This document shows positions 3,477 to 63,262 of a stretch of 64,000 bases of DNA, piece by piece. The stretch spans positions 97,402,001 to 97,466,000 of the forward strand of contig OZ024743.1 in assembly GCA_964016885.1 (NCBI GenBank), written 5' to 3'. How positions within the stretch are numbered: the stretch's first letter is position 1; every line of letters starts with the position of its first letter. Source of the stretch: Eledone cirrhosa. Its lineage: Eukaryota. The translations under genes were made by a program, and so were the position numbers. The notes under the pieces were generated by a model. That model worked only from the letters and a program-made list of their open reading frames with translations, searched no databases and was not told the origin of the DNA.

Positions 3477-3620
3477 AAAGAGCCAGAAATAGCCCTCGAA
3501 ACGGTTTGAGCCCTGCCGTCGGGGTCCTGACTATTTTCCTATTACCCACTCTACTACCCAAAGTACCGAGTACTCTGGTGCATTATGGTCCGCCTGGTTC
3601 CTTACCACACTTCCTTCGTT
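3472..3620 (+). mobile_element. Family B PLE-end remnant (3' half of hammerhead plus tail)
   Basis: Matches 4915-5035 and 53460-53512. Confidence 0.75.
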
Positions 3621-3639
3621 ATATATATATGCACACACT

Positions 3640-4793: not shown

Positions 4794-6014
<1,221 letters not shown>

Positions 6015-8626: not shown

Positions 8627-10414
8627 CCCTACTTCCTCTCCCTGATCATACGCCCCATCATTGAAATGTCCCCAGATGTATGTGACAGCACGGAGAACCT
8701 CTTCAGCAGAATCGGCGAGAGTAACCGATCTAGGGACCTAACAAACTGCATAATAGGTAGTATGCATGTTGTGTCCCTGTATCCATCTATTGACGTGGAT
8801 TTTGCTGTGGAGAAATGCGTAGAAATGATTGGTGAGAGCAATGTTGAGTTCCGTGGGATTGATACCAGTGAGCTGGGACTCCTACTTAAACTTACCTATA
8901 GTAATAATTACCTAGACACATATGACCTTAGCAACCTGTGCCCTACAAGACCAACAAGAGGCAGACCACCTACCATTACCTCAATGGCCAAGAAAACCCA
9001 CACAGATAGATGGAACGGGTGGACCAGAGCCATACGGACACCCGAAAACCACGATGAACTAAAGAAAATGTTGCACATGCGGTGGGGGCCAGCATAAAAT
9101 TAACCCTTAAGGAACATATGTTCAAATTTAATGGAAAAACATATGCCCAAGAGGAAGGAGCAGCCATTGGTGTTAGCATTGCAGGCGACATAGCTAACTT
9201 ATTCATGGTATGGTGGGACAGTAGACTTAAACTTAAACTTAAAGAACAATTAGGAGACCCCTTAACCCTGATAATGTACTCCCGCTACGTTGATGATATA
9301 AACATCGTAGTTAAAACACCCCCACTAGAGAATAGTCAGGAATTAGAGAAAAACACAATGGAAAACATCCAGCAAATAGCTAACTCCATTCACCAGAGTA
9401 TTAGAGTTACTATAGACTACTCAAGTAAACACCCCAACCATCGATTACCTGTACTAGACACAGAGCTCTGGTTAGATACCATTAATAACAAAAAACAAAT
9501 CCTCCATTCCCATTATGCCAAACCCATGACTTACAAATATCTGATCCACCGAAATTCAGCTGTTTCGGACCATACCAAAATCAACATACTGATTGCGGAT
9601 TTGGTACGGGTGATGAGAAACGTGTCGCGCATGTGCAACCCCAAAGAACTAGAGAGACACATACAACACTTCATCCACCGTATTCAGTTCTCTGGTTACA
9701 ATCAGAGAGATAAAATCAGAGTGTATAGAGGAGCCAGAACCAAATAGGAATTAATGGTAAATAATGACACAAATGGTACCTGCCCCTTGTATAGGAGCAA
9801 ATTTTGGAATAGAATAGAAAGGAGTAGGAATAAGGCTAATAGAAAAAACTCATGGTATGATAACAATAAATACCAGAGTGTAATATTCATCGATACAACC
9901 CCTAGAGGTGAATTACCTTACAAATTTAGAAGGGCCCTAGATAAACATAAACTCAATATTAAGATAGTAGAAAGACCAGGTACCTCCGTAAAAACACTTA
10001 TTAGCAAGACATACCCTTTTCAAAGACCCCCCTGTATAGATAAGAAATGTATAACCTGTAAATTAAGCCCCCATATTAACTGTAAAACTAGAAATGTAGT
10101 ATATAGCATAATATGTACTGAAGGACAATGTAGAGACAAAAATATAATGTACATAGGTGAGACAGCTCGTAGCGAAGGGGAACGGATAAATGAACACTGG
10201 CGAGACCTTCAAGATAGTAAAGAATCATCTGTACTCTACCAACATGCTAAAATAGAACATAAGGGTAAGTTAGAAAACAGAAATTAAAATAGAATCTACA
10301 CACAGAAAAGACGCAATGTTTAGACAAATCACAGAGGCAATAAACATAAAAGAATTACAGCCAAAATTAAATAGAAAACATGAGTGGAACAGCAACATCA
10401 CAACTTACAATTAA
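8627..10414 (+). pseudogene. Disrupted PLE reverse transcriptase / GIY-YIG endonuclease
   Basis: Motifs SLYPSID, QEEGAAIG, YSRYVDD, LPVLD, Cys-rich linker CIDKKCITC..C, VVYSIIC..YIGETARS..RINEH; shifted C-terminus RQITEAINI..LNRKHEW; frameshifts ~9070 and ~10280, TAG at 9745-9747. Confidence 0.92.
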
Positions 10415-10881: not shown

Positions 10882-11272
10882 ATATTAATAAATGGAAACT
10901 ATATTTATAAAACCATAATTATTTTATTGAATATATTTCAAGGGCAACCCATGCAGTCTTGGTGCGCTTTCATTAGATAAAATACACAATTTGTTTTATA
11001 ATTGCTATCCAGCGAACTTTCAACCGTCAAGGTTGTTTTCCACGATTATGTCAATATTTATAAAACAGATTTTGTATTTTATCTGATGAAAGCGCACCAA
11101 GACTGCCTTGCTTGCCCTTGAAATATATATAATAAAATAATTATGGTTTGTAAATATAGTTTCCATTTATTAATATATTGAATATTTACTCCAGTAACTT
11201 GTCGAGTGCTTTATATCAGTTATAAACATTTAAGTTTGTTGGAATTCAAACAAATTAAATTTAACTCCTGCA
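10882..11272. mobile_element. Family C fold-back element
   Basis: Arms 10882-11000 and 11058-11175 are inverted; the right arm has a ~95 bp extra tail. Confidence 0.8.
11075..11139 (+). ncRNA. Type-I hammerhead ribozyme (family C)
   Basis: TATTTTAT-CTGATGA-AAG...CTT-GAAA-TATATA-TA-ATAAAATA; 8 bp stem I, palindromic TATATA loop III. Confidence 0.8.
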
Positions 11273-11511
11273 TATATTATTTCTATATATATGTATATAT
11301 ATAAACATATATATATATATATAAAATGTGCCATGTTTTTATATATCCCTTTACAATTTACACACATACATGCTTACATACAAGTTATCTCTTATCATAG
11401 TCTTGTTTCTAAAAGAAGTTCCCTTTCCTGTCCCAAGTTTCTAGTTTCAACCCCTACGTGTCCCTGTAAATATTGTTTTTACAAAATTACTCCTACTTTT
11501 AAATGTGTATT

Positions 11512-11607
<96 letters not shown>

Positions 11608-12321
11608 TAATAAATGCACAGAGAACAAAAAACAGAGAGGCAGTACAAATGATATTAGTTTTAGTTTCACGCTATATATATATACTAGCAGAGGTACCCG
11701 GCGTTGCTCGGGTATTAAATAGTAGTTATGTATACCATTTATGTCAATACTTCAGTGCTGCTTCGAAATCTATACTTTTACAAAATCATCGGCTTTTTCC
11801 CAAAGGGGGTTCCTGTCCCCAGGGGTTCGCTACTCAATATGTGCCAATTCTGAGAGTTCACATTCATCTGTAGAACAAACGTAGCCCATGTGTCAAGTTT
11901 TGTGAAAATCGGTTGCGAACTCCAGAAGTTATGATGTTTTGTTGCATTGCACTGCAGTGCTTCAGTCGACTCCAAGGGAGCGGTCGAAGGGGGTTATCTG
12001 CCGGGAGGCCCTATAATCAATATCTGGAAAAATGAAAGTGCCCATGACCATCCGGAGTACATAAGTAACCTATGTTTTAAGTTTGTTGAAAATACTGTAG
12101 AAATGCATAAGGTTTACGTGCGTGCGTTCGTGTGTGTGTGTATGTATTTGTGTGTGCGTATGTATATGTATGTGTATGTCCGTCGGCGCATACGTATGTA
12201 CTGGCCTAAATATTCTCTATTTACTTTTACTATTTTAATAACCTCTGTCATTTTCGTTTGCAATTTTATTTACATCATTCTTAAACTCCGTGGCTGGAAA
12301 TCATTCGGTTATTTTAAATAG

Positions 12322-15011: not shown

Positions 15012-16415
15012 AGCTTTGATAGCACCACCTGGCGAAGTCTTACAAATCAGTGTTTGGGCACCATGGCCCACTTAAGCAGAGAGTTATTGTTTACGGAGGC
15101 ATATCCGGGTGTAGGAGGCTTATCCGGGATTTATTTAAGGAATTTGTCCAAAGACTTCTTGAACTTGATCGGATCTGTTTCTGTTTTGATGTGTTTTGGT
15201 GTAATGTTAAAGAGTGCAGGGCCAATTGAGGTGAAATAATTGTGCCGTATTGTGGTGATGAGATGCGAGTGAGATTTTTGTCGTGGGCGGATAGCACGGG
15301 GCCCAAGCCTTGGGTGTACATTAAAGGTGATGCCAACATCATTTGGGCAAAGCCAATGGAATATTTTCCACATCATGCAGATAATGTAGCGCTCACAGCG
15401 ACGTTGGAGAGAATAAAGATTGAGCTTTTCTAATCCACTCCAATACCAAGGACTGTCATGCCATCTATCTTTTTTGTAATCGATCTTTGGGGTGCTTCAA
15501 CTTTTATGATACTTTGTTTCGTGTGGGAAGACCACAGTGGACAACATTATTCAAGGTGTGGTCGGGCAAAAGTGGAGAAGAGAAGAACAACAGTGGGGAT
15601 ATCTCTCGACTGGAAGGTTGTGAGGATCCAGGAACACATTCTGCGGGCCATGTCAACTTTGCTGTTTATATGAGTGGCCCAGCTTATGTTGTTGTCGACA
15701 ATTACTCCCAGGTCTCTGATGTTGTTGGATGCCACTAGAGTTTCACCTGATGGAAAAGCATGGTAGTTTCAGGGCATCCTTTTTTCCAATGTGGATTAAT
15801 TCAAATTTCTCATTCGACAGCATATTATTATTTTCTGCCCATTGGATAACAGCGAGTATGTCTGACTTGGGCAAGTCCGGTCACCCACCTCATTGATGAC
15901 GCTTTGGAGATTGGAATCATCTGCGAAGATTCTTATATTGCTGTGCTTGATGTTGTCAGTAATGTCCTTAATGTAGATGATAAAAAGAAGTGGGTCCAAC
16001 ACATTGCCTTGTGGGACGCCACTGCTGACTTTGGCTGAGCTTGATTTTACTCTTTCGACTACAACATGTTGGGTTCTGTCTGTCAGGAAACATTTGATCC
16101 ACTTTAGTAAACTTCCAGAGACACCAACATTGGATAGTTTTTTCAGTAGAATCTTATGATCAACCCTGTCAAATGCCAAGCTTAAATCAAGGTAGATGAC
16201 ACCAGTGTTGGAGCCCTCTCCCAAGGCTCTCAAAAATCGTTAAACTGATGCAGGAGCTGCGTTAGGTAGTCCCTTCCATTATGGAACCCATGTTGATTGG
16301 AGTTCAGCATCCGTTGCTTTCAAGAAAGTGGGTTATTCGTGATCTCACTACCCTCTTAAACACCTTGATAATATGAGAGGTGAGTGAAATCGGACGGTAG
16401 TTCACTGCAGGGACT
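15012..16415 (-). mobile_element. 5'-truncated CR1-group LINE, RT pseudogene
   Basis: VNYRPISLTSH, IYLDLSLAFDRVDH, SGVPQG..LFIIYI, FADD, RDLGVIVD, FARPHLE; several stops and frameshifts. Confidence 0.9.
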
Positions 16416-17241: not shown

Positions 17242-17578
17242 TAACAGATTAAAGTTTAAGCAAAGAATCGGTGTCTTCACCCTTAACGGGATCTTCTGAA
17301 ACTAAAAATATTTGATATATATTTATCCTTATCGAGACCTCTTTGGATTTTAGTCTTCAAATTTATTATTACTATATATATATATATATAGGAACGAGTA
17401 GGACCCCGACGGCTGAGCTGAAGCCGTTTCGACGGCTAATTCTGGACTCATTAGCCGTCGAAACGGCTTGAGCTCAGCCATCGGGGTCCTACTCCTTCCT
17501 ATTACCCACTCTACTACCCTAAGTATTGAGTACTTTGGTGCGTTATGGTCCACCTGGTTCCTTACCACATTTCCTTCG

Positions 17579-17580
<2 letters not shown>
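17236..17580. mobile_element. Adjacent family D (17236-17372) and family B fold-back (17390-17580) remnants
   Basis: Sequence identity with the other D and B copies; separated by (TA)n. Confidence 0.8.
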
Positions 17581-17648
<68 letters not shown>

Positions 17649-23431: not shown

Positions 23432-23759
23432 CACTTCTCCAGCTTCTCTCGACAGATATCACCTTTTACAGTAATGTGTATAGTAATTAGTTTTTCAGGC
23501 CGGTATTTTCAATGTCATTTTTGTTTTTTCCTTTTATGCACTCAGGGAGGCCCAGCACCGGGTTAGCATTGTGGTTTTCGGCTTGGACCATAACGCACCA
23601 GAGTACTCAATACTTAGGGTAGTGGAGTGGGTAATAGGAAAATGTTTGACCCTGACGGCAGCCGTTTCAAAAAGGTTTGATCTCTGCCGTCGGGGTCAAA
23701 CATTTTCCCATATATATATATATATATTAAGTAAACCTATATATATATATATATATATA

Positions 23760-26069: not shown

Positions 26070-26315
26070 ATTGTTTCTGATTTAGGCACAAGACCAACAA
26101 TTGTGTGGGAGGGGAAGTCGATTAAATCGACTCAGTGCATTACTGGTACTTTATTTTTATCGAGCTCGTAAAGATGAAAGCCAAAGTTAATCTCGGTGGG
26201 ATTTTAACTCAGAACTAATAATAATAATTGTTTCTACTTTTGGCACAAGGCCAGCAATTACCCAGTGCATTACTGGTACTTTATTTTATCGACCCCGTAA
26301 GGATGAAAGGCAAAG
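26070..26315 (-). mobile_element. Two truncated copies of the TCATCC..GTCGATAAA SINE
   Basis: TACTGGTACTTTATTTTATCGACCCCGTAAGGATGAAAGGCAAAG, as at 60197-60245. Confidence 0.75.
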
Positions 26316-29125: not shown

Positions 29126-29380
29126 AACTGTCTAGTGCTTAGGAGTATGTTACACGTTGAACGATGGCGCAGAAATGATTGCTAAAATGAACAACATGAA
29201 CTCAGCTCCAGGTGTTACACACATATATATATATAAATATATATAAATCACACACACACACATACACACACACACACACACACTCCAGAAATACTTTTTC
29301 CTATTTCCCAATCTACTACCCTAAGTATTGAGTACTCTGGTGCGTTATGGTCCATCGGGTTCCTTACCACAATTCCTTCG

Positions 29381-29415
<35 letters not shown>

Positions 29416-35860: not shown

Positions 35861-35864
<4 letters not shown>

Positions 35865-36157
35865 AAAAAGTATGGCCCCCACGGCAGAGCCAAGCCGTTT
35901 CGACGGCTATTTCTTGACTAAAAAATAGCCGTCGAAACGGCTTGAGCTCTGACGTGAGGGGTCATACTTTTTCCTATTTCCCACTCTACTACCCTAAGTA
36001 TTGAGTACTCTGGTGCGTTATGGTCCATCTGGTTCCTTACCACAATTCCTTCGTTATATATATATATATATATATATATATAGCGAGGGAAAAGTGGTAA
36101 GGAACCAGGTGGACCACAACGCACCAAAGTACTCAATACTTAGGGTAGTAGAGTGGG

Positions 36158-36160
<3 letters not shown>
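35861..36160. mobile_element. Family B fold-back (35861-36054) plus an inverted tail-only copy (36083-36160)
   Basis: Identity to the other family B copies. Confidence 0.8.
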
Positions 36161-36251
<91 letters not shown>

Positions 36252-36753: not shown

Positions 36754-38061
36754 TTATACTTCTCTTAGGTCAGTGTTGTTTGTTTGGGTGTTGTTGTTAT
36801 TCCATTCATTCTTTCTGTTTAGTCTTGGTCTTCTAAGTTCTATTTCACTGGCCTCTGTGATTGTCCTATCTGCTGGGTCATTTCTATGTTTAGATATTAT
36901 TCTAATTTCTATGTTGTCTATGTTACCGCCATGTTGTTGTCTGGCATGTTCGTATAGTACTGACCCGTTTTTTCGTCCTTTTAGTTCCCCCCAGTGTTGG
37001 TCTATCCTTTCACCTATGCTACGAGCTGTCTCACCTATGTATGTTGTTGTCATGTTTCTGCAGGTACCCTCTCTACATCTTATGCTATAGACTACGTTTC
37101 TAGTTTTACAGTTTATCCTGGGCTTTACCTTACATATGATACATTTGCTATTGGTACAGTGGGTTTTCTTAAAAGGGTAGGTTTTGCTGATCAGGGATTT
37201 TATGGTGGTTCCTGGCTTTTCTACCACCTTAATTTTTAAGTGGGACTTTCTCAGGGCCTTTCTATACTGGTTAGCTAATTTCCCTCCAGGGGTAGCGTCC
37301 ACAAACATGACACTCTGGTATCTCTGGTTGTCGTACCATGAGGTGGCTTTCCCTATCTTATGTCTAGCCCTATCTAAGCTATTCCATGATTTGTTCCTGT
37401 ATAATGGGCAAATTCCTTTCATGTCCAGTTCTATGAGGGTCTTATACTTCTCCATGGCTCCTTCGTATACTCTGACTCTGTCTCTTTGGTTGTAGCCAGA
37501 GAACTGCATGCGGTTGATGAAGTGTTCGATGTGTCTTTCCATTTCTGTTGGGTCGCACATGCGGGACGCATTCTTCATCACTCGTACCAAATCTGCGATC
37601 AGAATATTAAACTTAGCACTACTGGACATTGCTGAGTTTTTGAGTATCAGCTATTTGGAGGCCATGGGTTTAGCATAGTGTGAGTGGGGAATTTGGGCTC
37701 TCTCGTCTATAGTGTTAATCCAGAGTTCTGTGTCTAATACAGGTAGTCTATTGTTAGGGTGTTTGGAAGGGAAGTCGATAGTTACAGTTATACTCTGGTG
37801 TATAGAATTAGCTATCTGCTGGATGCTTTCCATTGTGCTACGTTCTAAATAAAACTTGTTAGTGCTCTCTAGTGGGGATGTTCTTATAACTATATTGATA
37901 TCGTCTACATAACGAGAGTACATAATGAGGTCTATGGAGCTCTCATTAAGGAGATCTTTAAGTCTCCTTTCCCACCATACCATGAAAAGGTTGGCAACAT
38001 CACCAGCTATGCTGACGCCAATGGCTGCTCCTTCATTTTGGGTGTAGATCTTCTCGTTGAA

Positions 38062-38064
<3 letters not shown>
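36754..38064 (-). pseudogene. PLE RT C-half + GIY-YIG endonuclease with a single in-frame TAG
   Basis: [52 protein letters not shown]; stop at 37651-37653. Confidence 0.92.
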
Positions 38065-38122
<58 letters not shown>

Positions 38123-38187
38123 ATTACCCATTATATAAAACACATGGCAAAATGGTATATACCTTCCTATGTTCTAGGAGTCAGCCA

Positions 38188-44122: not shown

Positions 44123-44214
44123 GACCAATGGACTATCCTTAAAATATTGAGAAAATGAATATAGAAAGGTAGAAGTAGTGGGAGATAAAAAGAAGTCTTA
44201 AGGAGGAACACGAC

Positions 44215-44700
44215 GAGCGCATGTTACTGGGCAAATAGGTGCAGTTTTTCAGAGGCACTTCGCTCAGCTGTTTGGAGGCACCGGTGGTGTGTATCGCAGG
44301 ATGGACTTTAGTACCTACCTCGACGGTCTGCTGCGGCTCTCGAACACTGAAGTGGAGAGTTGCAAAAAGCCGATAACAGCCGCTGAAGTACCTGAGGCAA
44401 TAACTGGCTGCATGATTGGTAAATCACCTGGTTTAGATGGTCTGTTCTACGAGCTTCACGTGTACGTTAGACCTTTTCGGTTCCCTCTTGGCAGACGTCT
44501 ACTGTAACTAACGAGAGGATTCTCTGCTCTGTGAGCCGAAGAACTTCTTCTGAGAAAGGCCCTGAGCAAAGAGGAAAACAGAGGTAATTTCAGGTCCATA
44601 ACTCTGCTGAAGGTAGAGTTCAAGATTTTGGCGACGAGGTTGGTGGAAGATTTTGGCCAAGGTGTTAGCGAGGTTGGTGGAAGTATATGCATGCTTTTGG
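44215..44700 (+). mobile_element. Tx1/L1-like LINE RT N-terminal fragment, decayed
   Basis: PITAAEV..AI..GKSPGLDGLFYE and NFRSITLLKVEFKILA. Confidence 0.75.
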
Positions 44701-46393
44701 AAATTGGTTTAGGAGCCCATGCATTTGCCAGAAGATTGCCATCCTTAATTGACTTACTGTCCAGAAGGTGTGATAGCTGGAAGGAGAGAGAGAGCTGTAC
44801 AATCACTGGACGTTCACTGTCTTTAGTGACCCCGAAAGGATAAATGGCAAAAATGGACGTTGGTGGGACTTGAACTCAGAACGAAGAGACCAGAGCTCTA
44901 ACCATTCTACCAAATAGGGCAACTTATATCGATCCATCTATACATAAATACATACAGACAGACATGTATATATGCATGTTATATGTATTGTGTGTGTATA
45001 TCCATGTGGTATGTAGTGAGTGCTTCATTGGCTCTTTTCAACTGCACAAAATCAGGGAGGTGACATTTTAAACATTTGAAATATATTTTTTGAAATCAGC
45101 TTTGATTCAGTAACCGTTATTTTCACGCAGATTATCCGATGAAAGTGTGAATATATCAAACTGTTTGTTAGAAATTGTCGGATATTATTTGCAATCATTC
45201 TATCTTATTTTTTTATGGATCTTGGTGACATAGGAATCAATAATAATAAATATTATATAAGTATGTATACGTACATACATATATTTATACAGACGTACAG
45301 TAGTATGTATATATATATATACATACATGCACACATATATATGTACGTATGGATTCACCGAACAGTTATTATAATGCTCGGTGTGTTTGTAAACAAACAT
45401 CCCGTATTAAGCCGTAGTGTCTAGCAATCAACGTTGCTCGTTTGTTCAACACTGACAAAGGAAGGCTGTATACGTATACATACTTATATTTAAGTAACAG
45501 CGGTACTAAGAGTGGGAAATGAAATTTCGTTTCATTTTTTCCGTTTATAATAAATATTATTACACATTTGATGATGAAAGAAATGTTCTAAAATTGTTAT
45601 ACCTACAAATACATGTTTCTTTATATTTTTAAATGAATTCTAACTAAACGATAAATCTTTCATTCAGTTCCATAACATATGATGATATGGAACTGAAATC
45701 TAAGATGGAAATCAGATTTCAAATTGACTTTTAGCTCATAAAGTCGGCGTCTGACTAATTTGGTCACAATGTAGTTTAATATTTCTTCGACAGATATATG
45801 AAGTGGAATGGAAAAAAGATTATGGTAATTTTTTCCTTTTAGATTAATTACAATTTAGTAAATGAAGCTAGCTTTATGTACACGATATCACGAGCGAAGG
45901 CACGTGGCCTACTAATTTGGAAGTTGATTGTATAGTCGTGAGTTCTGTTTCCAACAGCACGTTCCCTACTTGAGCAAAAAATATATTTCACGTTACACCA
46001 CATGTACTTCAACACTGCACCATACGTAATCTCCATGAGAACTACATTAAAGAGACATGATGTCTGAGGAACGCTGAGTCACTTACATGTGAATTTCACG
46101 AGCAGGTTGGTCGTTATAACTGAAATACTCGTTAGATCAGAGAGAGATTCAACAACAATACATTAAGAAGAGAAAATATCTCGGTGATTGATCAGTTCTG
46201 CCTTTTAAGTAGTCACGCATATATCGAGCTTCTTTGTTTTTCATATCTTTACAGTCGCTGCATGTATGTACTTGATATAAGAGGGAGTTTAGAGAATGAA
46301 TGAATTATCTATCTAGATACTTCTCTATCTTTCTGTCTCCCCCACTTTTAATACTTACACACACCAACACAATAGTATACGCAAACGCACACG

Positions 46394-51018: not shown

Positions 51019-51049
51019 CATACACACATATATATATATATATATATAT

Positions 51050-51241
51050 AACGAAGGAAATGTGGTAAGGAACCAGGTGGACCATAACGCACCAAAGTAC
51101 TCAATACTTGAGGTAGTAGAGTGGGTAATAGGAACCAGTAAGACCCCGACAGCTGAGCTCAAGCCGCTTCGACGGCTAATTTAGTCCAGAATTAGCCGTC
51201 GAAACGGCTTGAGCTCAGCTGTCGGGGTCTTACTGGTTCCT
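51050..51241. mobile_element. Family B fold-back element
   Basis: Arms join at ~51183; the left arm has the long tail. Confidence 0.85.
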
Positions 51242-51356: not shown

Positions 51357-51390
<34 letters not shown>

Positions 51391-51394
<4 letters not shown>

Positions 51395-52082
51395 ATAATA
51401 ATAAATTTGAAGACTAAAATCCAAAGAGGGCTCGATAAGGATAAATATATATCAAATATATAAGAACCGTAGAACAAATATTTATTAAAATAACAGATTA
51501 AAGTTTAAGCAAAGAATCGCTGCTTTCACCCTTAACGGGATCTTCTGATACTAACAAAGTCAATCTGTAAACGCAGAAGTGGATATTTCAAAAAACGTTG
51601 CAGCCGGAGGAAGACAGAAAAGACGATACTTTGGTTCGTTCATTCGGTCTCCTAGTTAGAATTTTAGTCTACGACTCCAGCTATACTATTTGCGTGGTTT
51701 TGTCTTTGCTTACAATTGTTCTCCCCGCTCCACATATGACTTATTATCTTCGTTTTTTTCGTTCATTGCCAGAAAACGTCTCTATGAACCACCTAAGAGA
51801 ACATTAGTCTACGACCTCTTTTATACCATAAACGTGGTTCTGTCTTTGCGCGTAATTATTTTTCACCGCACCAAATAATAAGGTATTATATTCGTTTTTT
51901 CCCTTCTTTGCCAGGGAACCTTACCGCGAACCAAAGTATCGTCTTCCTGTCTTCCTCCGGTTGCAACGTTTTTTGAAATATCCACTTCTGCGTTTACAGA
52001 TTGAATTTATTAGTTTCAGAAGATCCCGTTAAGGGTGAAAGCACCGATTCTTTGCTTACACTTTAATCTGTTATTTTAATAT
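51391..52082. mobile_element. Largest family D fold-back, with internal ~140 bp tandem repeats and a CAGAAGA motif in each arm
   Basis: 51484-51640 is inverted relative to 51927-52082; TTAGTCTACGAC-starting repeats at ~51664 and ~51804; plus-strand motif at 52012-52062. Confidence 0.8.
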
Positions 52083-52088
52083 ATATAT

Positions 52089-53509
52089 TTTTCGACGGAC
52101 CAACTCCTAAACAAGAAAGATGAACTGGTTACTGCATGTAAACACCGATTACGTAGGACTTACCTCGCCCTCAAACCCCATAATGACCCGGGGGGTAGAC
52201 TAGGGCTATAACACCCCACTTGACTATTTTGTAATGGGTAACCCCTGCTTGCCTATGGAGACGTAAGATCTTCTTTTACATTCTTTTATCGCTTCCTCTA
52301 TATTTCCTCCTTCCCCCCATCCCTCCCTAGTCCTTCTACCCCAGTTCCCTTTCTTTGTCGTCGTCTTTTTCTCGCCCACCCGAGGTAGCCCATCGATCCC
52401 TTGTAGCTTCAGCACCCCCACCCCCTCCCCTATTCTATGATAGATTTGGCTGACTCCGCTTTTTATAGAAGAGGTGTTAGACTTCGGATACTCGCCCCCT
52501 TCTCCGACCGCTGTCCCTTTTTTCCGTGCCTTCTATATTTCTTAGTGGCTTCTTTGCTTTAATTTCTCGTTTATCCAGTATCTCTTTTTTCTTTTTCCCT
52601 TTTTTTTTGGGGGGGGGGGGAGGGTGTTCCTGTATTAATTTTCCGTTCTTTACTTTTACTCCGTACGATCTTTCATGTAGCTTGTATAAGACTTTTTGTT
52701 TCGTGGCGGTACCCTTAGAGTTAGCACTAGTATTTTTTTGCGGGACCCTGAATTATATTCTCGTACTAGTTTACTTTCTTGCACTGGGTGGTTGCTGGCC
52801 CTGTGTTTGGGGTAGAAACCTTTCTAATTTTCGTGGTAGTCTCTTTAGTATTCTGGCCCCCCCCCCCCCCCCTTTGTTGACCCGTCACCGTACGATACAC
52901 GCACTTATACCTCGTATAAGGGTCCCTTTATTTCCGTCCCACCTAGTTTATTTCTATTATTATTATTTATGTTTTTATTTTACATTATATATATATATAA
53001 TTTTTTTTTAAATTTATTTATCTATTCTTTTATTCACTTATTTGTTTATTTATTTATTTATGTATTTCTTTAGCCTAGCAATAGCGATTGACTTAAGTCT
53101 TAGTAACCAGATTTTGCTTTTTTTTTTTCTCTCTCTCTCAGTACCTTTTACAGTTTTACCTTTCATTGTTCTACTTACCGTTTCGACCTCCTCCCCCTCC
53201 CCCTCCCCAGTATCCTCTTTGACCTCACACCCAGCTGTAGCTGGCACTATCAACGCATGAATGGGTCTACTCCACCCCCTCTCCCATTTTCTCCTACCGG
53301 CAGGTTTAGCTACCCCTTCCCCCACCAACTTGCCATCACAGATTTACTACTAACTTGTGATGTGACCAATCCTGGTGATTATCTCTTTGACCATATATGG
53401 AATTACCCCTTGATAAGTTCGGCTATTTAAATACCAGAATTAATTTTTCATTCAGTACAGAATTAGCCGTCGAAACGGCTTGAGCTCAGCCGTCGGGGTC
53501 TTACTTGTT

Positions 53510-53512
<3 letters not shown>
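52089..53512 (+). mobile_element. 3' end of a probable Hydra-type PLE: ORF C-terminus, ~1.2 kb UTR and hammerhead; parent of family B
   Basis: 52092-52211 reads STDQLLNKKDELVTACKHRLRR..*, resembling the LLNK.SEL...CRH terminus of Hydra-clade PLE proteins; ends in family B sequence; TA-flanked. Confidence 0.65.
53405..53499 (+). ncRNA. Complete type-I hammerhead with compensatory U3-A8 core
   Basis: ACCCC-TTGATAA-G TT CGGCTA..TAGCCG TC-GAAA-CGGCT TGAGCTC AGCCG-TC-GGGGT. Confidence 0.85.
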
Positions 53513-53569
<57 letters not shown>

Positions 53570-53842: not shown

Positions 53843-54221
53843 ATTGGCAGTATCGGTAGAGGGTTGGACGCCATGCTTTCTAGCATAGTTACGTCCCTTT
53901 ACAGTCTGAGTTCAAATCCCGCCGAGGTTAACTTTGCCTTTCATCCTTACGGGGTCGATAAAATAAAGTACCAGTAATGTACTGGATAATTGCTGGCCTT
54001 GTGCCTAAAGTAGAAACAATTATGTGTCAAGGGCGCTGGATTGGCAGTATCGGTAGAGGGTCGGACGCCATGCTTTCCACCATAGTTACGTCCCTTTGCG
54101 GTCTGAGTTCAAACCCCACCGAGGTTAACTTTGCCTTTCATCCTTACGGGGTCGATAAAATAAAGTACCAGTAATGTACTGGGTTTTTGCTGGCCTTGTG
54201 GCAAAAGTAGAAACAATTATG
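53843..54221 (+). mobile_element. Two tandem tRNA-derived SINEs
   Basis: 53843-54022 and 54040-54221 are near-identical ATTGGCAGTATCGGTAGAGGG..GAGTTCAAA.CCC..AAAGTAGAAACAATTAT units. Confidence 0.85.
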
Positions 54222-54376
54222 TGTCAATCCTATAACACTTCGCCATAATATGTACCCATATCTAAATAAATGTATTCCCTCCTGGATGAAACTATGCTAC
54301 TGCTGATAACATTCCCAGAAGATCAACCAATGTTTTATTTCGAATAGTTGAACTATGCCATGAACAACTTTATAAG

Positions 54377-55261: not shown

Positions 55262-56254
55262 CTTTCTTTTTATTTGCCACCAGGGCTTCAAAAAGTGGGA
55301 CAAGTACAATGGGGGGAGTTTACATAAAAAGGCGTCCTCAATAAGGAGGAGGCAATAACAAAATATAAAAAATAATATATAAAATATAACAAAAATAAAT
55401 TTAATAACAAAATCCTCAATAGGGAGGAGGCGCATTGTGGGGTCGCACACATCCACGAAAAAAGTGTGCAACCCTGCTCCTCAGGAGCACAGAGAGGGGG
55501 TGCTCCCTTGATCTTTCATCTTCCTCACCTATAGTCTGATGTAGAGTGAAGGCCCATTCACACGGGCCATTCTCGCCACTTTCACCCATCTTTCATAAAA
55601 TCGGCTGGGGTGCCACACCTCTCTCTCCATCCTGATCCTTCTTCCGAAATGATATCGGAAGAAGCGGACCAGTTGTTGGCCAGAGAGAAAGGTGTCTGAC
55701 CTCAGTCCTTTCAGACGCGTCCACCATACAACCTCTTCGCCATGGCTATTACGCACAGAAACACCGCCTCTTCTTGGTTTTTGAAGAGGAGAGGCAGCTA
55801 GATCGTTACAATTGACTCGGTGGTCAACCGGATCGGTCCCACCCTTGACAGCTGTTGTTCGACATAGCCGCACAGATCGGCAATGCCCGAGCAGTGTACC
55901 AATGCGTGTGCAACGGTTTCATCGTCGCACACGTATCTGCGACAGATCTTTTTCGAGAGGTCCCTACCCGGGCGCCGGTGTCTGTAGAGCCTTTCTCGAA
56001 CAGGCAGAGCCCCTTGGTAGCACTGCCAGGCCAGGGACATCTGGAAGTTATCCATGGGTCCCGAGCTGAATGTCCTACCGAACAGGTTGGCCAGTTCGTC
56101 TTCCTCCATGCCTGGGGCTTCTCCGAGGGCGTCGTCGCACCTGCTAACCACTAGCCCTCTATAGAATGACGAGGTGGATTCTCCACTGACAGCGGGTTTC
56201 GCCTGCCAGAGAGCCGTGACCGCCTGGGCACACTCGGTGTGACAGGCGCCCAGT
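55261..56254 (-). mobile_element. Tx1/L1-like LINE 3' fragment (C-terminal zinc-finger region and 3' UTR) between (TA)n runs
   Basis: LAWQCYQGALPVRERLYRH..C..CDDETVAHALVHC; VVWWTRLKG; A-rich end AAATAAAAAGAAAG. Confidence 0.8.
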
Positions 56255-60159: not shown

Positions 60160-60802
60160 AAGGGAGGGGAAAGTCGATTAAATCGACCGCAGTGCGTTAC
60201 TGGTACTTTAATTTATCGACCCTGTAAGGATGAAAGGCAAAGCTAATGTCAGTGGGATTTGAACACAGAATGTAAATGACCGTAACTGTCTCGGTAAAGT
60301 ATGTTGTCCTTCGCCCTACCGATATTGCCAATCCACTGCCCTTCAAATTTGTAGTATAATAAAGTAGAAAGTTTGGATCGGGATCAAAATCATTTACCAT
60401 CAATCTACAGCAATCTAACATCATACAAGTAACACGTAATATAATAATTGTTTCTACTTTTGGCACAAGGCCAGTGGATTACTGGTGCTTTATTTTATCG
60501 ACCACGTAAGGATGAAAGGCAAAGTTAACCACGGAGGGATTTGAACTCAGACCGTAAAGGGCCGTAACTCAATGCTGCAAAGCATGACGTCGGACCCTCT
60601 ACCGATACTGCCAATCCACCACGTAATAATATGATAATTGTTTCTACGTTAGGCACAAGGCCAGCAATTACCCAGTGCATTTTATCGACCCCGTAAGGAT
60701 GAAAGGCAAAGTTAACCTTGGGCGGATTTGAACTCAGAATGGCAAGGGCCGTAACTCTATACGTCAAAGCATGGCGTCCGACCCTCTACCAATACTGCCA
60801 AT
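60160..60802 (-). mobile_element. Three head-to-tail SINE copies
   Basis: Units at ~60160-60337, 60444-60618 and 60632-60802; reverse complement of the 53843 family. Confidence 0.85.
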
Positions 60803-61206: not shown

Positions 61207-61592
61207 CTACAACGGTACGCGATGGGGCCCACCCACAGCCCCGGTGAACAGAATGGAGAAGGCGTTTCCCCGGAGGACGGCAAGGGAGACGCGCTGGAAA
61301 AGCCACTCCAACTCGCGCGGCTCACACCTGCGGCTGGCCAGCTCAGCGCCTACGGTGGTGAGTAAGGAGGTAGCCCTGTGGCCGATGACACCAGAAGTCT
61401 CCACTGCCAGGGGTACGACCGCAAATCTATCCGAGAGCGACCGGTATTTGAAGAGTTTGGCCACCTCAGCCCGACGTGGAGCAGAACCTGGGTCAGTCGC
61501 AGACTGCACCAGGTTGTGGCTGCAGAAAGTGTTGGTGCAAGTGGCATCCCAGACGAGGGGTTTGCCATCGCGGAACGGGAAGATGCCACAGT
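61207..61592 (-). mobile_element. CRE-type RLE LINE 3' fragment (endonuclease)
   Basis: GKPLVWDATCTNT..AE..K..KY..VPLAVETSG..LFQRVSLAVLRGNA; GC-rich island. Confidence 0.8.
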
Positions 61593-63120
61593 AATGTCTT
61601 TACAAATTTTCATATCTTTGAGTTTTCACTTAAATTTCGCCGTGTTATTCCTTGAATTTAATCGGTATTTATGTGAATTTAGTTCTAAGCATGTGCTGAT
61701 GCTACTTTAAATGGCTGTCTAACAGATGTTCAGCACATCATTGGTTCAACTAATCACTTTTTAGAATAATCATTCATCAATTTGCGCCAACATTCTAAGA
61801 CCTTGCCGTCCTTCGGGGAAATGCTTTCTCTATTTTGTCCGCTGGGGCTGTGGGGAGGCCACCAATATGATTGACTGACTTGTCATTTTATCCGTCAGAT
61901 GTTGTTAAACCTGATGAGACAATACATGTATTAGTTTGTCATAACATTGCATATAATTGTAAGACTACATATGGGTTCAAATGGAGGCATTACCAATTCA
62001 AGGTAAGACTAAGGGTTTAAAAATGAGAATTTACAATTTAAATTCAGGTCTCAAAATCATGTTTTTATCAGCAAAGTATTGAGGTATAAATCTCATATAT
62101 TTGTAATATCTTGTTTTGTTTTCAATTGTAAATCCAGTGACGGCAGCGATGAACAATCATAACAAATTATGAGATGACTGCCAGTAAAGTTATACACTTG
62201 TGTCTCTCTTTGAAAAATGTTCACTTGGTGCTGATTCTCTGGTCATTATAAAATCATTGTTCAAAGGACAAGCACTTTAACTCTTAAACGATTAGGTTCA
62301 ACACTCTCCAGAAACAATCTTATTGTGCAACGATGCTAGAAGCCGCACACGCTGTCATATGCTGTAATTCCATAGAAAACGCACTATTATGCTTGTGATT
62401 AAAAGGAAGAGTCTTCCCATTTAGTGTGGTTTATTGTACCGTGTACTCGAATTGATCAAATATTCCCTGTTACAATTTCTCTATACGATACATGATCTAT
62501 TCTTGACTAAATGGGTCAAGTCAGTTTAGGTTTTCGAAGTGACATAAGCTTACTATGAAATCACTATTCTCAACTTGAAATGATATTTCCCACTTTGAAG
62601 TAATATCTACCCATGATTAAATCATCAATCTCACGTGGATCTAACATTGCTTACTTTGAAAGCGTTATTCTAGACTTGAATTGGTTCATTCATACTTAGA
62701 ACTACACTGTAGTATAATACGACTGGTTTGTCTAAATTCTTAGATCACGTTTATTGGATGATGTCAATTGTAATATGGAATAAAGAATAATGTATTAATA
62801 TATCAATATATTTCAGTGCATTTGGTTGTGTAGATCGTAAGTGTATATAAAAAAGGATATATATTAAATAATTGGCCATCGAAGTAGAGCCTGCCCCGTG
62901 GATATTTATTCCATAGTATAAGAATGGTAAATACAAAAGTAATGTCTTTTTGCATCCATGGTTAGTATTTGAACATATTTTGCACTAATTATTATAAATT
63001 ACAATATCTTAAATAAATTGTTGAATGTATGTCTAAACATATTTATATTCTATTTCCTTATTTCTCAGTGTAACTGATTCTGCTATTTATATAATTCATA
63101 TTCACTTGTTCAATAAAGCT

Positions 63121-63262
63121 TGTGAAGGCGCATGGCTTAGTGGTTAGAGCATTGGGCTTGCAATCGAAAGGTTGTGAGTTCAATTCTCGGTGATTTGTTG
63201 TTTCCTTGAACAAGACACTTTATTTCACGGTGCTCCAGTTTACTCAGCTGTAGAAATGAGAT
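63121..63262 (+). mobile_element. tRNA-derived SINE head
   Basis: TGGCTTAGTGGTTAGAGC A box, GAGTTCAATTC B box, then TCCTTGAACAAGACACTTTATTTCACG SINE body. Confidence 0.8.

What the first reader, a model, noticed from the sequence alone, without database searches (positions are those of the whole stretch)
52089..53512. Parent of family B: probable Hydra-type PLE tail ending in a U3-A8 variant hammerhead
Seen: a 39-codon frame below the ORF-track cutoff (LLNKKDELVTACKHR), then ~1.2 kb non-coding sequence, then a complete hammerhead whose core is UUGAUAA rather than CUGAUGA. Stem I is ACCCC/GGGGT, stem II is CGGCTA/TAGCCG and stem III is CGGCT/AGCCG around palindromic GAGCTC. Known: the C3-G8 pair of the active hammerhead tolerates a compensatory U3-A8 swap. 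Inference: this ties the most abundant island family in the window to an autonomous PLE clade and gives a natural core variant that CUGANGA searches would miss.
Basis: partly seen in the sequence, partly recalled or inferred. Interest (0 to 1): 0.82.

Follow-up and report, generated by a model that had tools for sequence, protein, structure and literature searches.

The report
Jumping-gene ribozyme loses, regains core pair
This is the cut-off tail of a young Penelope-type jumping gene ending in a predicted self-cutting RNA whose unusual core is already known, but its relatives in the same genome indicate that the lineage lost that core base pair, kept spreading to thousands of copies and later regained it, which makes it testable whether these elements need their ribozyme to cut.

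Summary
Observation confirmed. 52089-53512 is a 5'-truncated copy of a young Hydra-clade Penelope-like element; longer copies carry RT plus GIY-YIG with DKT, CxCX5C and CxxC/CxH motifs. It ends in a type I hammerhead fold with a U3-A8 core. That core is not new: it is reported in nature and in about 1,300 schistosome PLE motifs. New here: the core is not constant. Exact counts give 5,610 U3 arms, 1,936 non-U3 arms (98 of the first 100 are mismatched C3-A8) and 12 canonical C3-G8. ORF trees rooted on a sister family give U3-A8, then a long C3-A8 stage, then U3-A8 again (window's subfamily); a small old subfamily has U3-G8. Family B is not one offspring family: at least 13,756 two-armed stubs carry the marks of different subfamilies, both arms stopping 2-14 nt into loop II. 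Cleavage is untested, no RNA run was listed, and one published mutational scan found no U-A rescue. The scan had already noted Hydra stubs, two-ended insertions and ribozyme arrays elsewhere in this genome; the core-pair history was not among the notes returned. New variant of a known kind.

The parts
52089..52211 (+). Last 40 codons and stop of the PLE ORF (end of GIY-YIG domain, N and CxH motif); 5' truncation point at 52089, joined to (TA)n
   Evidence: 95% identical to aa 690-731 of the L062 frame
52212..53404 (+). Pyrimidine-rich 3' UTR, about 1.2 kb in this subfamily
53399..53511 (+). Type I hammerhead fold, with predicted distal extension of stem I (53399-53403 with 53507-53511)
53405..53409 (+). 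Stem I 5' strand (pairs with 53495-53499)
53410..53416 (+). Core UUGAUAA: U3 = 53410, N7 = 53414, A8 = 53415; other subfamilies have CUGAGAA, UUGA(G/A/C)AA or UUGAAGA
53420..53469 (+). Stem II (53420-53425 / 53464-53469) and 38-nt loop II; the 3' part of loop II (about 53450-53462) is where family B arms end
   Evidence: pair 2 of stem II: G-C 14, G-U 3, A-U 3 of 20 rows
53472..53494 (+). GAAA, stem III with palindromic loop, GUC triplet; predicted cut after C 53494
   Evidence: cut site by hammerhead numbering (established knowledge), untested
53512..53558 (+). 3' end CCT|A and (TA)n target
51049..51241 (.). Family B palindromic stub with 81-nt tail on the left arm; bases of the U3-A8/G7 subfamily
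17390..17581 (.). Family B stub with tail; 3' signature of the C3-A8 stage
4851..5037 (.). Family B stub with tail; C3-A8-stage signature; duplicated 558 nt downstream
5409..5595 (.). Identical duplicate of the 4851-5037 stub
35862..36056 (.). Family B stub with tail; signature of the older subfamilies
3484..3621 (+). One-armed old stub with tail
23584..23708 (.). Short old two-armed stub with part of the tail
29292..29383 (+). Very short stub: last 10 nt of the element plus tail
36081..36162 (-). Tail-only insertion between (TA)n runs
51389..52086 (.). Neighbour, not part of the element: two-armed truncated copy of a second Hydra family (family A) into whose (TA)n end the finding is inserted; its hammerhead-like motif at 52012-52062 has core CAGAAGA

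Best explanation
52089-53512 is a 5'-truncated copy of a young Hydra-clade Penelope-like retrotransposon, likely written into a (TA)n run by the family's own RT-endonuclease, and it ends in a type I hammerhead fold predicted to cut after 53494, whose 3-8 core pair appears to have been lost and regained within this lineage while amplification went on. Shown: identity, copy structure, subfamily series of cores, truncation hot spot. Inferred steps: (1) the full unit (about 3.6 kb: 81-nt tail, 5' region, ORF, 3' UTR, hammerhead) is transcribed from tandem copies; (2) the hammerhead cuts weakly and the monomer is likely circularised, or read-through RNA is used uncut, because every insertion crosses the cut site intact and one arm continues into the 5' tail; (3) both ends of a nick in (TA)n prime cDNA, one at CCT|A 18 nt after the cut site and one at the tail end 81 nt further on; (4) the RT usually stops 2-14 nt into loop II, just after copying a stretch that can fold into a 6-bp cDNA hairpin and on entering an AT-rich run, and the two short cDNAs join over 0-4 nt of microhomology, giving family B; rarer read-through gives long copies such as this one; (5) positions 3 and 8 are held only to pyrimidine-purine (U-A, C-A, U-G), so strong cleavage is probably not required for spread, while the fold is.
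For: ORF with Hydra motifs in longer copies. Full structure tail/inverted arm/pLTR/ORF/pLTR/(TA)n in L062. Core counts: U3 5,610, non-U3 1,936 with C3+A8 in 98 of first 100 rows, G8 70 of which C3-G8 12. Raw reads of another DNA sample: C at 53410 in 47 of 355 reads, N7 variable, no listed variant at A8. ORF nucleotide trees (41 rows, 882 columns): sister family and oldest copies U3, then a C3 grade (96/97), then a U3 clade (96/91); 2 changes; U3 as one clade rejected (p-AU 3.8e-8; 1.7e-44); 3' UTR tree agrees for the young part. Fold conserved: against the youngest copy, 9 copies keep 29-34 of 34 stem bases and 10-13 of 13 core bases while third codon positions fall to 0.75 and the adjacent UTR to about 0.63-0.68; one stem II pair goes G-C / G-U / A-U along the tree. 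Stubs: 13,756 exact palindromes; 64,562 arms hold the 3' half against 7,546 with the 5' core, but only 8 of 60 arms that pass the core end in the next 60 nt; 27 of 28 palindromes have the tail on one arm, 22 distinct centres; 2 of 33 arms in 0.6 Mb of arbitrarily placed stretches pass the core. A 299-nt head-to-tail array of an internally deleted unit starts in loop II and ends at the tail end.
Against: No cleavage or RNA evidence. [quoted passage not shown] Metazoan PLE hammerheads cut poorly in vitro (PMC4209133). The reversion is a single C-to-T transition on a trunk of about 0.05-0.08 changes per site, so it need not reflect selection. The alternative rooting (old U3 with L184 and L169) is not rejected (p-AU 0.098), and the protein tree with distant outgroups left the root open. 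Short stubs are common in the sister Hydra family too (14 of 21 arms end within 60 nt of its cut site; difference p = 0.02), so part of the hot spot is general early abortion. Pattern counts depend on exact matches and undercount old copies; one of the 33 arms is cut by a stretch edge; loop II divergence can shorten alignments. No copy with an unbroken ORF from first Met to stop was seen among 7 loci holding the 5' end. The circular template rests on one array and on the tail.
Confidence: 0.7

Rival explanations
1. The motif is catalytically dead or irrelevant in all subfamilies; the three-way fold is kept only as a binding or priming signal for the RT, and U3-A8 is not a selected compensation.
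For: C3-A8 stage gave about 1,900 core-bearing arms and roughly a fifth of 54,719 3' ends (22 of first 100 rows); U-A swap not rescued in one scan; every insertion crosses the cut site uncut; Naiads spread without canonical hammerheads (PMC8557442); the sister family has a U4A core change.
Against: G12, A13, A14, A15.1-U16.1 and C17 stay fixed apart from scattered single changes in 58 sampled copies (U4, G5, A6 and A9 were fixed by the search pattern and are not independent); position 7, free in active hammerheads, is the one core site that drifts; U3-A8 persists across about 25% ORF divergence; the 299-nt array is easiest to explain by a cut-and-ligated circle.
Confidence: 0.25
2. The C3-A8 stage was rescued: by a protonated C-A wobble, by a shifted register in which C3 pairs with G7 and the extra A bulges, or in trans through a dimer (palindromic loop III) with RNA of a U3-A8 subfamily. 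Cleavage was needed throughout.
For: 93 of first 100 non-U3 rows read CUGAGAA, always offering a G next to position 8; all subfamily states are pyrimidine-purine; palindromic loop III is invariant in most copies; dimeric action is proposed for PLE hammerheads (PMC4209133).
Against: Constant G7 is expected from descent alone; G7 persists after the return to U3; no paper on loss of position 7 was found (0 hits); no U3 lineage is seen branching from within the C3 grade before the reversion in the 41 rows sampled.
Confidence: 0.2
3. Family B is a self-propagating non-autonomous palindrome (MITE- or SINE-like) and this copy is only a relative.
For: Very high number; some centres recur (for example one 14-nt centre 4 times among 28); an identical duplicate pair exists in the window.
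Against: 22 distinct centres in 28; recurrent ones are those with 2-4 nt microhomology; both arms of a stub share the marks of one PLE subfamily and different stubs track different subfamilies; stubs lack the 5' core and keep the same two end points as long insertions.
Confidence: 0.06
4. The return to U3 is a recombination or template switch that put an old U3-A8 hammerhead on a newer ORF, not a point reversion.
For: Subfamilies coexist in thousands and PLE RT switches templates (inverted arms, deletions).
Against: Early post-change copies carry U3 together with the loop II and 3' signature of the C3 stage, not of the old U3 copies (L196, L209; 2 UUGAGAA copies); UTR and ORF trees agree.
Confidence: 0.07

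Closest known systems
Hydra-clade Penelope-like elements, including Hydra-1_Obim (Craig et al. 2021, PMC8557442; seen: passages, section 11, supplement parts 1-2 and search hits)
   Same: Single RT plus C-terminal GIY-YIG ORF, DKT, CxCX5C linker, CxxC and CxH round E/N, (TA)n target, 3' type I hammerhead, inverted 5'-truncated arm and one-sided tail. Motif strings match Hydra-1_Obim by eye; no alignment was run.
   Different: All Hydra rows of their hammerhead table have CUGANGA and short loops; here U3-A8, C3-A8 or U3-G8, a 38-nt loop II and a 6-bp stem III. Unit about 3.6 kb against under 3 kb; tail 81 nt against 30-40 nt; RWR for RWK. A different family from Hydra-1_Obim (its listed hammerhead is unlike this one).
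U3-A8 minimal hammerheads of Schistosoma mansoni Cercyon PLEs (Cervera and de la Pena 2014, PMC4209133; seen: parts 1-2 of 4 of the text, no supplement)
   Same: PLE-borne type I hammerhead with U3-A8 core, about 1,300 hits, long stem II, extra base at the foot of stem II, palindromic loop III.
   Different: Different PLE family and host; minimal stem III there, a full one here; no C3-A8 stage or subfamily history in the parts read.
Natural hammerhead core variants (Perreault et al. 2011, PMC3088659; seen: section 8 and passages, not figures S6-S7)
   Same: States that C3-G8 covaries to U3-A8 in several natural examples and that such variants were active in vitro.
   Different: Mismatched C3-A8 is not named in section 8; their examples are single motifs, not an amplifying lineage.
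Animal non-LTR retrozymes (bioRxiv 10.64898/2026.07.22.740005; seen: part 1 of 5; PMC7229834: search listing only)
   Same: The 299-nt array at G000:C2:356.03 Mb is a tandem, non-coding, hammerhead-bearing unit derived from this PLE.
   Different: The finding itself is a coding-element fragment; family B stubs lack half the ribozyme and are not tandem; only one array locus was seen.

Membership tests
Hydra-clade PLE | Single ORF with RT and C-terminal GIY-YIG endonuclease | tested here: met
   L061, L062, L063 read open for 618-731 codons through YRDD and YIG to the window's C-terminus; 1,204 homologues at E <= 0.001. Pfam scan gave 0 families. N-terminal frame is broken at a C run in the copies seen.
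Hydra-clade PLE | DKG modified to DKT | tested here: met
   HSDKTGNLY
Hydra-clade PLE | N-terminal RWK motif | tested here: inconclusive
   LRWR in 7 of 7 loci with the 5' end; close homologues have RWR or RWK
Hydra-clade PLE | Linker CxCX5C | tested here: met
   CNCPDRSSC
Hydra-clade PLE | CCHH motif of the endonuclease absent; CxxC and CxH flanking conserved E and N | tested here: met
   Only one C between VIY and YIG; CNLC before EE and CKH after LLN, read by eye against section 11
Hydra-clade PLE | Insertion into (TA)n, pLTR, inverted truncated arm, one-sided tail | tested here: met
Hydra-clade PLE | Length generally under 3 kb | tested here: not met
   About 3.6 kb; older subfamilies have 0.64-0.99 kb UTRs. 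The paper says 'generally', so this does not exclude membership.
Hydra-clade PLE | Canonical 3' hammerhead | tested here: inconclusive
   Hammerhead topology present, core non-canonical at 3 and 8
Hydra-clade PLE | RT groups with named Hydra families in a PLE phylogeny | not tested
   No named reference set was available as stored sequence; the tree used unnamed homologues only
Type I hammerhead ribozyme | Three stems round CUGANGA / GAAA / UH with stem I open | tested here: met
   one double-sided compensatory pair in stem II
Type I hammerhead ribozyme | Watson-Crick pair between positions 3 and 8 | tested here: met
   U3-A8 in this copy; not met in about a quarter of core-bearing relatives
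Type I hammerhead ribozyme | Loop I - loop II tertiary contact | not tested
   An internal loop in extended stem I is predicted; loop II is variable
Type I hammerhead ribozyme | Self-cleavage after position 17 | not testable with these tools
   Needs an assay or RNA reads
Non-LTR retrozyme | Tandem non-coding units each with a full hammerhead | tested here: not met
   Not met by the finding or by family B; met by one derived array elsewhere

The most novel reading that the evidence does not exclude
A retrotransposon master lineage ran for about 5-8% sequence divergence and made over ten thousand insertions with a hammerhead whose 3-8 core pair was a C-A mismatch, then restored the pair. Either CUGAGAA is a new active natural core, or Penelope-like elements spread without ribozyme cleavage and keep the hammerhead fold as the RT's landing and stopping structure, which is also why about nine in ten copies end in loop II. 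The genome supplies a dated allelic series (U-A, U-G, C-A, U-A) on one scaffold with its amplification record.
Probability: 0.35. Interest if true: 0.72.

Novelty: new variant of a known kind. Interest (0 to 1): 0.5.

Why it matters
What hammerheads do for endonuclease-bearing Penelope-like elements is stated to be unclear (PMC8557442). Here one lineage gives natural, ordered core variants, one of them predicted to be crippled, each with a copy count; four short RNAs and one RT assay would say whether cleavage tracks amplification. Practically, descriptor and Rfam searches miss over 7,500 full motifs and over 60,000 half motifs in this genome, and a reproducible stop inside the ribozyme explains a very abundant palindromic repeat.

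Tried and rejected
Rfam: no hammerhead hit. Pfam on two long ORFs: 0 families. The repeat finder was swamped by microsatellites. No RNA holder listed; not evidence either way. My first idea, that stubs arise by fold-back at stem II and keep a whole short loop II, was rejected: centres are made of two truncated arms, and short-loop full motifs are rare deletions (20 hits). My second idea, ancestral C3-A8 with U3 gained twice, was overturned when the sister family proved to be U3-A8; it is not formally excluded (p-AU 0.098). An alternative fold that buries GAAA in a hairpin is 2.9 kcal/mol worse and under 2% populated at equilibrium, though it leads in some partial transcripts. A loop II pseudoknot with the tail or UTR was considered by eye; the young subfamily breaks it, not pursued. 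Canonical C3-G8 copies do not form a subfamily: 4 of the 12 were inspected and carry loops of different C3-A8 subfamilies. Rows dropped: one search left out 20 of 30 sister-family loci without a recognisable hammerhead and thinned near-identical young copies; one search used 51 of 146 motifs and lost the old subfamilies; one search lost 3 rows to a filter; one search used 58 of 60. Three biochemical papers on the 3-8 pair were not held, so rates for G8A and C3U/G8A are not quoted. Literature searches showed no report of a natural C3-A8 subfamily or of a loop II stop; unseen supplements of PMC4209133 and PMC3088659 (figure S7, inactive variants) may bear on this. The host species was not established by any search.

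Full report
Observation. The fold is the minimum-energy structure with stem probabilities of 0.98, but its energy alone is unremarkable (z -1.31) and Rfam does not find it. The window is G000:C4:97402001-97466000 in a 3.0-Gb assembly.

What it is. The last 173 nt have 1,727 candidates in the genome; 23 of the 40 scored, the window's own copy included, are identical. The first 242 nt have 1,957 candidates, and 29 of 29 non-self loci continue upstream into a coding frame. [quoted passage not shown] It has DKT, a CxCX5C linker, CxxC and CxH round E and N, and lacks the paired cysteines of the CCHH motif, the features given for the Hydra clade in section 11 of PMC8557442; the N-terminal motif is RWR rather than RWK. 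L062 shows the whole insertion: (TA)n, 81-nt tail, inverted truncated arm, pLTR, tail, ORF, 3' UTR, hammerhead, (TA)n. No copy unbroken from first Met to stop was seen among 7 loci with the 5' end; most break at a C run, so autonomy is inferred. The window copy lacks an inverted arm and sits in the (TA)n end of a truncated copy of a second Hydra family, 53% identical in protein.

The U3-A8 core is known. Section 8 of PMC3088659 reports natural C3-G8 to U3-A8 covariation, and PMC4209133 reports it in schistosome PLEs with about 1,300 hits. It is not among the Hydra rows of the hammerhead table of PMC8557442, all of which read CUGANGA. Against easy tolerance, passages of PMC9901934 state that in their hammerhead only the C-G to G-C swap rescued these positions.

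The core is not constant. Exact patterns give 5,610 arms with U3 (A8 in 98 of the first 100 rows, all four bases at position 7), 1,936 with another base at 3 (C3 with A8 in 98 of the first 100), and 70 with G8, of which 12 are canonical C3-G8. Raw DNA reads of another sample show C at 53410 in 47 of 355 reads and no listed variant at 53415 (reduced-representation data). Trees built on the ORF alone place the C3-A8 copies as a grade between two groups of U3 copies; U3 as one clade is rejected. A more distant sister family, 70-77% identical in the ORF, has U3-A8 or at least U3 in all 10 copies with a recognisable motif. Rooted on it, the 41-row tree is a ladder: U3-G8 copy, old U3-A8 copies, C3-A8 grade (96/97), then U3 again (96/91) with the window's subfamily at the tip; two changes at position 3. 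The C3 stretch of trunk is 0.05-0.08 changes per site. Another rooting, with U3 gained twice, is not rejected (p-AU 0.098), and the protein tree with distant outgroups is unresolved there; in every case the window's U3 descends from C3-A8. U3-G8 copies with their own loop II form a small old subfamily. The 3' signature of the C3 stage marks 22 of the first 100 of 54,719 element ends, roughly 11,000-12,000 insertions if that sample is typical. Meanwhile the fold is under constraint: stems keep 29-34 of 34 bases and the core 10-13 of 13 while third codon positions fall to 0.75, and one stem II pair passes G-C, G-U, A-U (1 of 15 pairs shows a two-sided change).

Family B. The genome holds at least 13,756 exact palindromic stubs. 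Of 28 examined, 27 have the tail on one arm only, both arms end 2-14 nt into loop II, most joins have 0-4 nt of overlap (8 have extra bases), and 22 centres are distinct (15 of the 28 were picked by a pattern limiting centre length). Both arms of a stub share subfamily marks, and the window's stubs belong to the G7, C3-A8 and old subfamilies, not to that of 52089-53512. So B is the continuous by-product of every master copy. The 3' half of the motif occurs 64,562 times against 7,546 for the 5' core, an 88% loss over about 55 nt, whereas 8 of 60 arms that pass the core end in the next 60 nt. In 60 arbitrarily placed 10-kb stretches 2 of 33 arms pass the core (one is cut by a stretch edge); in the sister Hydra family 7 of 21 arms extend more than 60 nt beyond the cut site (p = 0.02). 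Short stubs are thus general, with a sharper stop here. Read depth rises about 30-fold across 53445-53470, partly inflated by loop divergence.

How it most likely works. Established for PLEs: target-primed reverse transcription by the element's RT-endonuclease. Inferred here: two primings at (TA)n, one 18 nt after the predicted cut and one at the tail end; a template that is a ligated circle or an uncut read-through RNA, since insertions cross the cut site and run into 5' sequence; and frequent termination just after the RT has copied a stretch able to form a 6-bp cDNA hairpin, on entering AT-rich loop II. One 299-nt head-to-tail array of an internally deleted unit, seven full motifs, begins in loop II and ends at the tail end, as a single pass round a circle would; tandem duplication after insertion is the alternative. 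I commit to a weakly active hammerhead whose fold matters more than its rate (0.7 for the whole account; identity as a Hydra PLE fragment about 0.95). Rivals: dead ribozyme kept as an RT signal (0.25), rescue of the C3-A8 stage by wobble, register shift or trans dimer (0.2), recombination instead of reversion (0.07), self-propagating family B (0.06); these overlap in part.

Novelty. New Hydra family with a known core variant; the loss and regain of the 3-8 pair on an amplifying lineage and the loop II stop were not found in my searches, with the limits that three biochemical papers were not held and two supplements were not seen. Earlier notes of this scan describe Hydra stubs, two fixed ends and retrozyme arrays in the same genome; look-ups by this sequence and by the core terms returned nothing.

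Noticed in passing
window 51389-52086 (motif 52012-52062); L214-L225: A second young Hydra family, with many copies holding a 713-codon open frame, ends in a hammerhead-like motif with core CAGAAGA: C3-G8 kept but U4 changed to A in 32 of 33 distinct matches. About 12 arms in the window. The hammerhead fold is not its minimum-energy structure.
   Followed up: partly
G000:C2:356029906-356031747 (L075): Retrozyme-like array: seven 299-nt units made by a deletion joining the start of the ORF to the hammerhead, loop II shortened, U3-A8 core, two units sharing one variant base.
   Followed up: partly
L172-L184, L061-L066: The 3' UTR lengthened along the lineage: about 0.64-0.69 kb, 0.92-0.99 kb, 1.15 kb, 1.2 kb.
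   Followed up: no
L059-L069, near codon 66 after the first Met: The N-terminal frame breaks at a C run of variable length in most long copies seen; assembly error, slippage or a programmed shift were not told apart.
   Followed up: no
window 36081-36162: Tail-only insertion between two (TA)n runs, ending exactly at the element's 3' end point.
   Followed up: no
window 9058-10287 (+) and 36754-38130 (-): Two fragments of another RT plus GIY-YIG element (YVDD, Neptune- or Naiad-like by recall), 73% alike as an inverted pair, one interrupted by (TA)n.
   Followed up: no
window 15131-16239 (-); 44202-44843 (+); 55529-56150 (-); 61207-61599 (-): Decayed RT-like fragments of other retroelements.
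   Followed up: no
window 53844-54230: Two tandem copies of a roughly 200-nt tRNA-like repeat, probably a SINE; a tRNA-like Rfam match also at 63131-63192.
   Followed up: no
L218:905-990: A motif with GAAAC followed later by CTGATGA, possibly a permuted hammerhead of another repeat.
   Followed up: no
window 52780-52819 against 60640-60679 and 26244-26269: A 40-nt piece of the 3' UTR resembles a different dispersed repeat.
   Followed up: no
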